A stretch of 64,000 bases of DNA. Source: Escherichia coli. Lineage in GTDB: Bacteria; Pseudomonadota; Gammaproteobacteria; Enterobacterales; Enterobacteriaceae. The DNA lies in NCBI RefSeq assembly GCF_003334315.1, contig NZ_QOWR01000021.1. One strand, written 5' to 3'. This document shows, one piece after another, positions 29,001-30,636 of this stretch (within the stretch, counting starts at the first letter, position 1; every line of letters begins with the position of its first letter). The position numbers were made by a program, and so were the translations under genes. The notes under the pieces are model-generated. The model saw only the letters and a list, made by a program, of their open reading frames with translations, was not told where the DNA came from and did no database searches.

Positions 29001-29418
29001 GTCCCAGCAGCCCCACCAGCGCAGGTTTAATGACTTCATTGTGATAGACAAAATCGCGCTGTTTCACTTTATCCCATGCGCGATGCACCCGACCGCCCAG
29101 TTCCGGCAGGATCATCACTTTGATGTAGTCGTTTTCCAGCCACACCGCCTGCCAGGATTTCAGGGTTTTCTGCTCGCTCAGCGTATCGGTCACGCCGTAG
29201 GGATAAACCGCGCCGGACGATCCCTGATAAACGCGATTTTCCAGGAACATGGGATGTATATCCTGCGGCCCGGTTTCATAGGTCGGGATCTCAACGCGCT
29301 CTTGCCACACTTTTACTGGAGTCATGGTGCCCTCAATATTAACAAGACATACTGAATTAAAAGATTTTTGGCAGTGTATTGAACAATCTGGCAATGTTTT
29401 CGCGGAATAATCACGCAA
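26044..29418 (-). CDS. yphG: Large uncharacterised protein YphG (N-terminal domain of unknown function plus C-terminal TPR-like repeats)
   Basis: Single 1124-codon ORF; its first codon is TTG; an internal ATG at 29328 has a GAGG Shine-Dalgarno and may be the true start. Confidence 0.85.
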   Translation of the reverse strand: MRDYSAKTLPDCSIHCQKSFNSVCLVNIEGTMTPVKVWQERVEIPTYETGPQDIHPMFLENRVYQGSSGAVYPYGVTDTLSEQKTLKSWQAVWLENDYIKVMILPELGGRVHRAWDKVKQRDFVYHNEVIKPALVGLLGPWISGGIEFNWPQHHRPTTFMPVDFTLEAHEDGAQTVWVGETEPMHGLQVMTGFTLRPDRAALEIASRVYNGNATPRHFLWWANPAVKGGEGHQSVFPPDVTAVFDHGKRAVSAFPIATGTYYKVDYSAGVDISRYKNVPVPTSYMAEKSQYDFVGAWCHDEDGGLLHVANHHIAPGKKQWSWGHSEFGQAWDKSLTDNNGPYIELMTGIFADNQPDFTWLDAYEEKRFEQYFLPYHSLGMVQNASRDAVIKLQRSERGIEWGLYAISPLNGYRLAIREIGKCNALLDDAVALMPATAIQGVLHGINPERLTIELSDADGNIVLSYQEHQPQELPLPDVAKAPLAAQDITSTDEAWFIGQHLEQYHHASRSPFDYYLRGVALDPLDYRCNLALAMLEYNRADFPQAVAYATQALKRAHALNKNPQCGQASLIRASAYERQGQYQQAEEDFWRAVWSGNSKAGGYYGLARLAARNGHFDAGLDFCQQSLRACPTNQEVLCLHNLLLVLSGRQDNARLQREKLLRDYPLNATLWWLNWFDGRSESALAQWRGLCQGRDVNALMTAGQLINWGMPTLAAEMLNALDCQRTLPLYLQASLLPKAERGELVAKAIDVFPQFVRFPNTLEEVAALESIEECWFARHLLACFYYNKRSYNKAIALWQRCVEMSPEFADGWRGLAIHAWNKQHDYELAARYLDNAYQLAPQDARLLFERDLLDKLSGATPEKRLARLENNLEIALKRDDMTAELLNLWHLTGQADKAADILATRKFHPWEGGEGKVTSQFILNQLLRAWQHLDAREPQQASELLHAALHYPENLSEGRLPGQTDNDIWFWQAICANAQGDQTEAMRCLRLAATGDRTINIHSYYNDQPVDYLFWQGMALRLLGEQHTAQQLFSEMKQWAQEMAKTSIEADFFAVSQPDLLSLYGDLQQQHKEKCLMVAMLASAGLGEVAQYESARAELTAINPAWPKAALFTTVMPFIFNYVH

Positions 29419-29442
29419 TTAACTAAACAAGGTTTAGTGAAG

Positions 29443-30636
29443 ATGAGAGCCTGCATTAACAATCAACAGATCCGCCACCATAACAAATGCGTGATTCTGG
29501 AACTGCTGTACCGGCAAAAGCGCGCCAATAAATCAACGCTGGCCCGACTGGCGCAAATTTCGATTCCGGCAGTCAGTAATATTTTGCAGGAACTGGAAAG
29601 CGAAAAACGGGTGGTGAATATCGACGATGAAAGCCATACGCGCGGGCATAGTAGCGGTACATGGCTGATTGCGCCGGAAGGTGACTGGACGCTGTGCCTG
29701 AACGTGACGCCCACCAGTATTGAGTGTCAGGTTGCTAATGCTTGTTTAAGTCCGAAAGGTGAATTTGAGTATTTACAGATTGATGCACCGACGCCGCAGG
29801 CGCTGCTGTCCGAAATCGAAAAATGCTGGCATCGCCACCGTAAATTGTGGCCGGACCATACCATCAACCTGGCGTTGGCAATCCACGGTCAGGTTGATCC
29901 TGTGACCGGCGTGTCGCAAACCATGCCGCAAGCGCCGTGGACAACGCCGGTGGAGGTGAAATATCTGCTGGAAGAGAAGCTCGGCATTCGGGTGATGGTC
30001 GATAATGACTGCGTGATGCTGGCGCTGGCGGAGAAATGGCAAAATAATTCGCAGGAACGGGATTTCTGCGTGATCAACGTTGATTACGGCATTGGCTCGT
30101 CGTTCGTGATTAACGAGCAAATTTATCGCGGCAGTTTGTATGGTAGCGGACAGATTGGTCACACCATCGTTAATCCGGATGGCGTCGTCTGCGACTGTGG
30201 ACGTTATGGCTGCCTGGAAACCGTCGCCTCGTTAAGCGCATTAAAAAAACAGGCGCGGGTATGGCTAAAATCACAACCGGTTAGTACTCAACTTGATCCT
30301 GAAAAACTGACTACAGCGCAGTTAATCGCTGCCTGGCAAAGTGGAGAACCGTGGATCACCAGCTGGGTTGACCGCAGTGCCAATGCCATTGGTTTGAGTC
30401 TGTATAACTTCCTCAACATCCTCAATATTAATCAGATTTGGTTGTACGGTCGCAGTTGTGCCTTTGGTGAGAACTGGCTTAATACTATTATTCGCCAGAC
30501 AGGATTTAACCCGTTCGACCGCGACGAAGGACCGAGCGTGAAAGCGACGCAAATTGGCTTTGGGCAATTAAGCCGCGCACAACAGGTGCTGGGAATTGGC
30601 TATTTGTATGTTGAGGCGCAGTTACGACAGATTTGA
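29443..30636 (+). CDS. yphH: ROK-family (NagC/XylR-like) transcriptional regulator YphH
   Basis: N-terminal HTH plus ROK sugar-kinase-like domain; start set to ATG at 29443 (397 aa). Confidence 0.88.
   Translation: MRACINNQQIRHHNKCVILELLYRQKRANKSTLARLAQISIPAVSNILQELESEKRVVNIDDESHTRGHSSGTWLIAPEGDWTLCLNVTPTSIECQVANACLSPKGEFEYLQIDAPTPQALLSEIEKCWHRHRKLWPDHTINLALAIHGQVDPVTGVSQTMPQAPWTTPVEVKYLLEEKLGIRVMVDNDCVMLALAEKWQNNSQERDFCVINVDYGIGSSFVINEQIYRGSLYGSGQIGHTIVNPDGVVCDCGRYGCLETVASLSALKKQARVWLKSQPVSTQLDPEKLTTAQLIAAWQSGEPWITSWVDRSANAIGLSLYNFLNILNINQIWLYGRSCAFGENWLNTIIRQTGFNPFDRDEGPSVKATQIGFGQLSRAQQVLGIGYLYVEAQLRQI

What the first reader, a model, noticed from the sequence alone, without database searches (positions are those of the whole stretch)
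29328..29443. yphG start-codon ambiguity and a 24-bp divergent yphG-yphH gap
The longest yphG ORF begins at a TTG at 29418, only 24 bp from the divergent yphH ATG (29443), leaving no room for two promoters. An internal ATG at 29328 (MTPVKVWQ...) is preceded by GAGG with 5-nt spacing, which would give a 1093-aa protein and a 114-bp divergent control region.
Basis: seen in the sequence. Interest (0 to 1): 0.3.

Follow-up and report, generated by a model that had tools for sequence, protein, structure and literature searches.

The report
yphG start codon: already settled ATG
The long open frame upstream of E. coli yphG is a chance read-through of conserved regulatory DNA. The gene really starts at the ATG that current reference annotations already use, so this is an ordinary, already-resolved annotation point.

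Summary
The window is E. coli: yphF-yphG, then divergent yphH, glyA and hmp. The longest yphG frame does start at TTG 29418, 24 bp from the yphH ATG at 29443. The in-frame ATG (MTPVKVWQ…) is at 29325, not 29328, so the gap is 117 bp, not 114. GAGG with a 5-nt spacer and a 1093-aa product are correct.

NC_000913.3 (b2549, NP_417044.4), PGAP in other E. coli genomes and UniRef YPHG_ECOLI all use this ATG. The 1124-aa form was found in one old record.

Independent evidence agrees:
- In 80 orthologous loci, protein similarity begins at residues 1-7, and nearly all have a start codon (ATG in almost every case) within about 5 codons of M1; six do not (nearest start 7-35 codons upstream).
- In close relatives the upstream frame is broken by stops, a 1-nt indel, and TTG→TAG.
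- Variable columns in the 93-nt extension fall 13:14:10 by codon position, against 44:21:228 in the gene (p = 3e-11).
- The ATG has a Shine-Dalgarno (ribosome-binding) match of -6.1 kcal/mol; the TTG has none (+1.0).

The TTG lies inside an invariant ATTGCGTGA. This belongs to a 28-30 bp non-coding motif next to yphH, found in 19 of 19 loci with a divergent yphH and 0 of 61 without. It is a candidate YphH operator, untested. No experimental initiation data could be reached. Interest is low.

The parts
26044..29325 (-). yphG coding sequence as it should be read: ATG start, 1093 aa, with DUF5107 at residues 39-324 followed by TPR repeats
   Evidence: ORF list. RefSeq CDS coordinates in four genomes, including MG1655 b2549/NP_417044.4, map to window 29325. 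Pfam hits. Orthologue N-termini are colinear.
29326..29418 (-). Spurious 31-codon upstream extension (TTG…), which is non-coding DNA
   Evidence: In relatives: a stop at codon -18 and a +1-nt indel in L007, TTG→TAG in L009, and stops in L010. Variable columns fall 13:14:10 by codon position, against 44:21:228 in the CDS. There is no Shine-Dalgarno match before the TTG (+1.0 kcal/mol). All 4 E. coli SNPs seen here would be non-synonymous.
29330..29334 (-). yphG Shine-Dalgarno sequence GAGGG (GAGG plus a 5-nt spacer to the ATG)
   Evidence: Sequence. Duplex with the 16S rRNA 3' end is -6.1 kcal/mol. TGAGGG is invariant in the six closest species, and a G-rich equivalent (TGGAGA) is present in the more distant ones.
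29326..29442 (.). 117-bp divergent yphG-yphH control region
   Evidence: The gap is 115-119 bp in all 18 Enterobacterales and Aeromonas loci that have a divergent yphH. E. coli and E. albertii differ at 2 of 93 sites here, against 25.7% at third codon positions of yphG. There is no consensus sigma-70 promoter or terminator and no Rfam match.
29411..29440 (-). Deeply conserved non-coding motif TCACTAAAC-N3-GTTnA(C/G)T-N2-ATTGCGTGA. It contains the false TTG start (29418..29416) and, at its centre, the yphH Shine-Dalgarno sequence. It is a candidate YphH operator or yphH leader element (inferred).
   Evidence: Unique in the window, with 0 expected by chance. Present in 19 of 19 loci with a divergent yphH and in 0 of 61 without. 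Invariant columns are listed. The 7-3-7 dyad at 29422-29438 shows no covariation as an RNA hairpin.
29443..30636 (+). yphH (ROK-family regulator, uncharacterised), 397 aa from the ATG
   Evidence: RefSeq CDS. The in-frame GTG at 29437 is put out of frame by a 1-nt indel in L007-L009, so ATG 29443 is the conserved start. An AAGG Shine-Dalgarno sequence lies at 29429-29432, 10 nt upstream (-3.3 kcal/mol).
29364..29394 (-). Best but weak sigma-70-like candidate promoter in the yphG direction (-35 TTGCCA, 19-nt spacer, -10 AAAAAT). This is speculative.
   Evidence: My own position-weight scan gives score 7.2; a fraction of 2.9e-4 of background positions score as high or higher. It was not found by the stricter consensus scan. 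The -10 hexamer is ACAAAT in most E. coli strains. If it is used, the TTG at 29418 would not be in the mRNA.

Best explanation
yphG is translated from the ATG at window 29325 (minus strand) and gives the 1093-aa DUF5107/TPR protein. The 31 codons upstream, back to TTG 29418, are not coding. They are part of a 117-bp divergent yphG-yphH regulatory region that happens to lack an in-frame stop in Escherichia. The TTG is conserved because it lies inside an invariant non-coding motif (ATTGCGTGA) next to the yphH start, not because it starts translation.

Shown: the position of the coding/non-coding boundary, the Shine-Dalgarno sequence, and agreement with current annotation.
Inferred: the conserved motif is a binding site for the ROK regulator YphH and/or part of the yphH leader, and both promoters lie inside the 117 bp and are weak or activator-dependent.
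For: 1. Annotation. The RefSeq CDS for yphG ends at the position equal to window 29325 in W5-6, AREA_494, EDL933 and MG1655 (b2549, NP_417044.4, 2679464..2682745). The 1093-aa form is the UniRef representative YPHG_ECOLI and occurs on at least 1000 contigs. The 1124-aa form occurs once, as EFI89599.1.
2. Orthologue N-termini. In 80 loci from Escherichia to Bacteroidota and Bacillota, tblastn similarity starts at query residues 1-7. Nearly all have a start codon within about 5 codons of M1, and it is ATG in all of those but one (L069, GVG-type GTG at -2). Six loci are exceptions (L031-L033, L048, L065, L068), where the nearest in-frame start lies 7-35 codons upstream. In most loci a stop closes the upstream frame within about 10 codons.
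3. Close relatives. Enterobacter sp. BIGb0383 (95% identity) has a stop at -18 and a +1-nt indel between the Shine-Dalgarno sequence and the ATG. Enterobacter sp. R1 has TAG in place of the TTG and no upstream start codon. ENT03 has in-frame stops.
4. Codon-position test. Variable columns in the extension fall 13:14:10, against 44:21:228 in codons 1-300 (chi-square p = 2.8e-11). The extension is indistinguishable from uniform (p = 0.70).
5. Pairing with the 16S rRNA 3' end: -6.1 kcal/mol before the ATG and +1.0 before the TTG.
6. DUF5107 starts at residue 39 of the short form, and PDB 5cd6 aligns its residues 34-322 with YphG residues 39-344, so the N-termini are colinear.
7. A gap of 115-119 bp and a divergent yphH are conserved in 18 loci.
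Against: No direct experimental evidence was reachable, neither an N-terminal peptide, a Ribo-RET or TetRP peak, nor a mapped TSS. yphG and yphH are absent from the held supplements of three relevant studies, and the Ribo-RET preprint has no held supplements. The extension frame stays open with a TTG at -31 in E. coli, E. albertii and strain RIT691. A very low level of initiation at the TTG in Escherichia therefore cannot be excluded from sequence alone.
Confidence: 0.96

Rival explanations
1. TTG 29418 is the true (sole) start and YphG is 1124 aa. On this reading the promoters of yphG and yphH lie inside each other's coding sequences.
For: It is the longest ORF. The TTG and the open frame are retained in E. 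albertii and RIT691. One database entry uses this start (EFI89599.1).
Against: There is no Shine-Dalgarno match (+1.0 kcal/mol). The frame is broken in four of the nearest non-Escherichia relatives, including TTG→TAG. There is no third-position bias. No orthologue among the 80 loci has a homologous extension. All current reference annotations reject this start.
Confidence: 0.01
2. Dual initiation: the ATG is the main start, but Escherichia also makes a minor 1124-aa isoform from the TTG.
For: The frame is open and the TTG is present in 5,400 or more E. coli genomes, with 97% or higher identity across the region.
Against: That conservation is explained by the non-coding motif, which is equally conserved in species where the frame is closed. 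TTG without a Shine-Dalgarno sequence is a very poor initiator. All 4 E. coli SNPs seen in the extension change the hypothetical amino acid. If the promoter lies within the 117 bp, the TTG is probably not transcribed (weak evidence).
Confidence: 0.02
3. A downstream start is the real one, for example GTG at codon 6 (window 29310).
For: GTG is an allowed start and is in frame.
Against: The codon is GTT, GCG or ATC in close relatives. The Shine-Dalgarno match is only -2.1 kcal/mol. Residues 4-8 (VKVWQ) are conserved across phyla, so they are coding. The ATG at M1 is invariant in the six closest species.
Confidence: 0.01

Closest known systems
Current reference annotation of E. coli K-12 yphG (b2549, NP_417044.4; UniProt/UniRef YPHG_ECOLI, 1093 aa)
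   Same: It has the same start codon (window 29325), the same 1093-aa product and the same 117-bp gap to yphH.
   Different: Nothing differs. The window strain differs from MG1655 by 3 SNPs across 29296-29472, only one of which lies in the 117-bp gap.
Longest-ORF over-extension, a generic annotation artefact in which an in-frame NTG lies upstream of the true start in AT-rich intergenic DNA
   Same: There is an open upstream frame bounded by a rare start codon, no Shine-Dalgarno sequence, no coding signature, and an implausibly short gap to the divergent gene. Shuffles give such an extension in 3-12% of trials.
   Different: Here the extension DNA is unusually conserved because it is regulatory. 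A naive amino-acid alignment of Escherichia with its nearest relatives therefore looks 'conserved'.
NagC/Mlc-type control regions (ROK repressors of E. coli that bind 23-bp quasi-palindromes with TT-N9-AA; PMC4288165)
   Same: YphH is the third ROK-family repressor-like protein of E. coli. It is encoded divergently from a sugar-transport and catabolism-like operon, and a conserved dyad-like motif lies in the shared control region.
   Different: The conserved yph motif does not have the TT-N9-AA signature. The only TT-N9-AA 23-mer in the gap (29393-29415) has 5 of 11 symmetric pairs and sits mostly outside the conserved block. The YphH linker motif also differs from NagC and Mlc (RG rather than GR). 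Binding has not been tested.
PDB 5cd6, 'TPR-domain containing protein' (a structural homologue carrying the DUF5107 region)
   Same: Residues 34-322 of the chain align with YphG residues 39-344 (E = 2.9e-20), so the N-termini are colinear with the short form.
   Different: It is 580 aa against 1093 aa, and no function is assigned to either protein.

Membership tests
Genuine N-terminal coding extension (29326-29418 as codons) | Substitutions concentrated at third codon positions | tested here: not met
   13:14:10 in the extension against 44:21:228 in the CDS; p = 2.8e-11 for the difference and p = 0.70 against uniform.
Genuine N-terminal coding extension (29326-29418 as codons) | Reading frame and start codon preserved in orthologues | tested here: not met
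   L007 has a stop at -18 and a +1-nt indel. L009 has TTG→TAG and no upstream start. L010 has stops. Most of the 80 loci have a stop within about 10 codons.
Genuine N-terminal coding extension (29326-29418 as codons) | Ribosome-binding site upstream of the proposed start | tested here: not met
   Duplex energy with the 16S rRNA 3' end is +1.0 kcal/mol for TTG 29418 and -6.1 for ATG 29325.
Genuine N-terminal coding extension (29326-29418 as codons) | Direct evidence of initiation (N-terminal peptide or initiating-ribosome peak) | not testable with these tools
   yphG is absent from the held supplements of the TetRP, TRAINSPOTTER and Cappable-seq papers. The Ribo-RET supplements are not held.
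YphG orthologue group (DUF5107 + TPR protein) | DUF5107 domain followed by TPR repeats | tested here: met
   PF17128 at residues 39-324 (E = 3e-55); TPR_16 at 499-560 and 754-813.
YphG orthologue group (DUF5107 + TPR protein) | N-terminus colinear with orthologues when started at ATG 29325 | tested here: met
   All 80 tblastn matches start at query residues 1-7. The motif VKVWQE.V.IPT follows a start codon within about 5 codons in nearly all loci; six are exceptions.
NagC/Mlc-type ROK operator | 23-bp quasi-palindrome with invariant TT/AA at ±5,6 (TT-N9-AA) (PMC4288165) | tested here: inconclusive
   The conserved motif at 29411-29440 lacks TT-N9-AA. The single TT-N9-AA 23-mer in the gap (29393-29415) has only 5 of 11 symmetric pairs. 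YphH may recognise a different site, and no binding data exist.
Structured RNA leader (hairpin 29422-29438) | Base pairs maintained by compensatory changes | tested here: not met
   78.1% of cells are paired, equal to the shuffled mean. One pair is unpaired in 12 of 15 sequences and another in 7 of 15. There is no Rfam match.

The most novel reading that the evidence does not exclude
The only part that may be new is not the start codon. It is the 28-30 bp motif TCACTAAAC-N3-GTTnACT-N2-ATTGCGTGA (29411-29440), which abuts the yphH start. It is conserved almost base for base from Escherichia to Aeromonas, while YphH itself drops to about 57% identity, and it is found only where a divergent yphH is present. 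It could be the operator of the uncharacterised ROK regulator YphH. That would give autoregulation and control of the yphGFEDCB operon, with a recognition sequence unlike NagC or Mlc.
Probability: 0.45. Interest if true: 0.25.

Novelty: already known. Interest (0 to 1): 0.06.

Why it matters
It matters very little. The correct yphG start is already in RefSeq, PGAP and UniProt, so nothing changes for users of current annotation. The exercise gives annotation-independent comparative proof of that start. It also carries a caution: an upstream 'extension' can look conserved at the amino-acid level among close relatives simply because it overlaps constrained regulatory DNA. The by-product is a sharply defined conserved motif in the yphG-yphH control region. 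It gives a concrete target for anyone who wants to de-orphanise the ROK regulator YphH and the yph sugar-utilisation-like operon, whose functions are still unknown.

Tried and rejected
1. Experimental initiation and TSS data. I searched the held supplements of TetRP (PMC4909307), TRAINSPOTTER N-terminomics (PMC13245402) and Cappable-seq (PMC4782308, also by coordinate prefixes) for yphG, yphH and b2549. There were no occurrences. The Ribo-RET preprint has no held supplements.
2. Literature. Full-text searches for 'yphG', 'yphH' and 'DUF5107' gave no functional or start-site studies. The search for 'b2549' returned only unrelated papers.
3. Promoters. The consensus promoter and terminator scan of 29100-29700 found nothing. 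My own position-weight scan gave only weak candidates.
4. RNA families. Rfam at E ≤ 1 over 29150-29650 gave no match.
5. RNA hairpin at 29422-29438. I rejected this reading because there is no covariation.
6. A second copy of the conserved motif elsewhere in the 64-kb window. None was found. A 1-mismatch hit of the short 7-3-7 dyad at 56967 lies just upstream of a 540-aa ORF that I take, from memory, to be nadB, and it overlaps a TGTTTA-N6-TAAACA sequence that I recall as the NadR-box consensus. I judged it unrelated.
7. CRP-site and NagC/Mlc-type readings of the region. Nothing convincing emerged (my own reading of the sequence).
8. E. coli strains with a stop or frameshift in the extension. 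The most divergent alleles sampled have only SNPs. One strain (AR62.2) has an IS1 inserted 24 nt upstream of the ATG, which says nothing decisive about the start.

Full report
**What is there.** The window is E. coli. Window 29000-29800 is 100% identical to strain W5-6 and matches all 5,426 complete E. coli genomes at 95% or higher. The genes are yphF, yphG on the minus strand, then yphH, glyA and hmp. The mechanical ORF list gives 26044..29418 (-), 1124 aa, starting at TTG. Reading the minus strand gives …TTG CGT GAT … ATT GAG GGC ACC ATG ACT CCA GTA AAA GTG TGG CAA….

The in-frame ATG is at 29325, not 29328. GAGG lies at 29334..29331 with the 5-nt spacer GCACC. The ATG product is 1093 aa. 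The yphH ATG is at 29443, and an in-frame GTG lies at 29437. The gap is 24 bp from the TTG and 117 bp (not 114) from the ATG.

**Already annotated this way.** The RefSeq CDS for yphG ends at the base equal to window 29325 in four genomes. These are W5-6, AREA_494, EDL933 and the K-12 MG1655 reference (b2549, NP_417044.4, 2679464..2682745 = 3282 nt). yphH starts at the base equal to 29443. An exact look-up shows that the 1093-aa K-12 protein is the UniRef representative YPHG_ECOLI and is seen on at least 1000 contigs. The 1124-aa form occurs once (EFI89599.1, E. coli MS 196-1). Thirteen of the 15 listed members of the 18,305-member cluster are 1093 aa. The 'ambiguity' therefore exists only in a longest-ORF list.

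**Evidence from orthologues.** A scan of one genome per species with YphG residues 1-300 returned 80 loci at 64-100% identity. They range from Escherichia, Enterobacter, Budvicia, Rahnella, Citrobacter, Aeromonas and Photobacterium to many Bacteroidota and Bacillota. Every tblastn match begins at query residue 1-7.

In these loci the conserved N-terminal motif (V)KVWQE.V.IPT follows a start codon within about 5 codons of E. coli M1 in nearly all. That start is ATG in all of these but one (L069 has only a GTG, at -2). Six loci are exceptions (L031-L033, L048, L065, L068), where the nearest in-frame start codon lies 7-35 codons upstream. In most loci the upstream frame is closed by a stop within about 10 codons.

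The nearest non-Escherichia relatives are decisive:
- Enterobacter sp. BIGb0383 (95% protein identity) has a stop at -18 and an extra base between the Shine-Dalgarno sequence and the ATG.
- Enterobacter sp. R1 has TAG where E. coli has the TTG, and no start codon anywhere upstream.
- ENT03 has two in-frame stops.

**Codon-position test.** Across six species, variable alignment columns in the 93-nt extension fall 13:14:10 on codon positions 1:2:3. This is indistinguishable from uniform (p = 0.70). In yphG codons 1-300 the split is 44:21:228. The two distributions differ at p = 2.8e-11. The coding signature begins at the ATG.

**Variation within E. coli.** The four SNPs seen in the extension would all change the hypothetical residue (L/V, D/Y, H/Y, Q/H).

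**Ribosome binding.** Pairing with the 16S rRNA 3' end is -6.1 kcal/mol upstream of ATG 29325, +1.0 upstream of TTG 29418 and -2.1 upstream of the GTG at codon 6. TGAGGG is invariant in the six closest species.

**Domain colinearity.** DUF5107 begins at residue 39 of the short form. PDB 5cd6 aligns its residues 34-322 with YphG residues 39-344, so the N-termini are colinear.

**Chance.** Shuffling the 35%-GC intergenic sequence leaves 31 or more open codons in 12% of trials. It gives a start-codon-bounded extension of that length in 3.4%. This is unremarkable at genome scale.

**Why the extension DNA is nevertheless conserved.** E. coli and E. albertii differ at 2 of 93 sites in the extension, against 25.7% at third codon positions of yphG. 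In 5,423 E. coli genomes the 137-nt query (window 29316-29452: the 117-bp gap plus 10 nt of coding sequence on each side) is 99% identical or better in 4,749. The region is constrained as non-coding DNA.

yphH is divergent from yphG in all 18 Enterobacterales and Aeromonas loci, with a gap of 115-119 bp. A 15-species alignment shows a block of about 30 bp next to the yphH start: TCACTAAAC-N3-GTTnA(C/G)T-N2-ATTGCGTGA, at window 29411-29440. The false TTG start is the TTG inside the invariant ATTGCGTGA. The motif is unique in the 64-kb window, with 0 expected by chance.

With up to 3 mismatches, the motif is present in 19 of 19 loci that carry a divergent yphH and in 0 of 61 that do not. These 19 loci are phylogenetically related, so this is co-occurrence and not independent proof.

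The central N3 plus the following G is the yphH Shine-Dalgarno sequence (AAGG, GGAG or GAGG on the + strand). In Escherichia the motif contains a perfect 7-3-7 dyad at 29422-29438. As an RNA hairpin that dyad has no support: 78% of cells are paired, equal to the shuffled mean, and two pairs are mostly broken. There is no Rfam match.

I infer a DNA-level element, most simply the operator of YphH and/or part of the yphH leader. YphH is described as E. coli's third, uncharacterised ROK repressor, with an atypical linker (PMC4288165). The motif does not carry the TT-N9-AA signature of NagC and Mlc operators. None of this was tested for binding.

**Promoters.** No consensus sigma-70 promoter lies in 29100-29700. 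A looser position-weight scan gives only weak candidates. The best in the yphG direction is -35 TTGCCA at 29394, a 19-nt spacer, and -10 AAAAAT at 29369. If it is used, TTG 29418 would be left out of the mRNA. The operon is probably silent or activator-dependent under laboratory conditions. That would fit with yphG and yphH being absent from every held supplement I could search, although those files may be incomplete.

**The yphH start.** The in-frame GTG at 29437 is put out of frame by a 1-nt indel in three close relatives. ATG 29443 is therefore the conserved start, as annotated.

**Verdict.** It is already the public annotation, so novelty is 'already known' and interest is low. Remaining rivals (TTG as sole start, dual initiation, a downstream GTG) together hold about 0.04. 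The conserved yphH-proximal motif is the only item that might merit follow-up.

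Noticed in passing
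window 29411-29440 (-): A 28-30 bp non-coding motif, TCACTAAAC-N3-GTTnACT-N2-ATTGCGTGA, is conserved almost base for base from Escherichia to Aeromonas. It is present in 19 of 19 loci with a divergent yphH and 0 of 61 without, and it is unique in the window. It is a candidate operator of the uncharacterised ROK regulator YphH.
   Followed up: partly
window 26044-29325 (-); loci L026-L084: YphG (DUF5107 + TPR, function unknown) is unusually conserved across phyla. Its first 300 residues are 64-68% identical between E. coli and Bacteroidota, Bacillota and a Spirochaetales MAG. This suggests a strongly constrained enzyme-like domain and/or horizontal spread. A full-text search for DUF5107 found no functional literature.
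   Followed up: partly
window 29326-29442: The intergenic region is far more conserved than synonymous sites. E. coli and E. albertii differ at 2 of 93 sites here, against 25.7% at yphG third codon positions.
   Followed up: yes
window 29370 (+ strand T; minus-strand A in CCAAAAAT): The window strain carries a minority allele (A) where MG1655, EDL933, E. albertii and most E. coli have C (CCACAAAT). It falls in the -10 hexamer of the best, though weak, yphG-direction promoter candidate.
   Followed up: no
L087 1788-2485 (E. coli AR62.2); equivalent to about window 29349: An IS1 is inserted 24 nt upstream of the yphG ATG in one dog isolate. It separates yphG from its control region, and PGAP still calls the 1093-aa CDS.
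   Followed up: partly
window 29437-29445 (+): yphH has its own small start ambiguity: GTG at 29437, two codons upstream of ATG 29443. A 1-nt indel in three close relatives puts the GTG out of frame, which supports the annotated ATG.
   Followed up: yes
window 56967-56995 (+): The short dyad search hit ACCAAACCATGTTTAGT just upstream of a 540-aa ORF (57000..58622) that I take, from memory, to be nadB. The hit overlaps TGTTTA-GTAAAT-TAAACA, which fits the NadR-box consensus as I recall it (my own knowledge, not tested). I judged it unrelated to yph.
   Followed up: no
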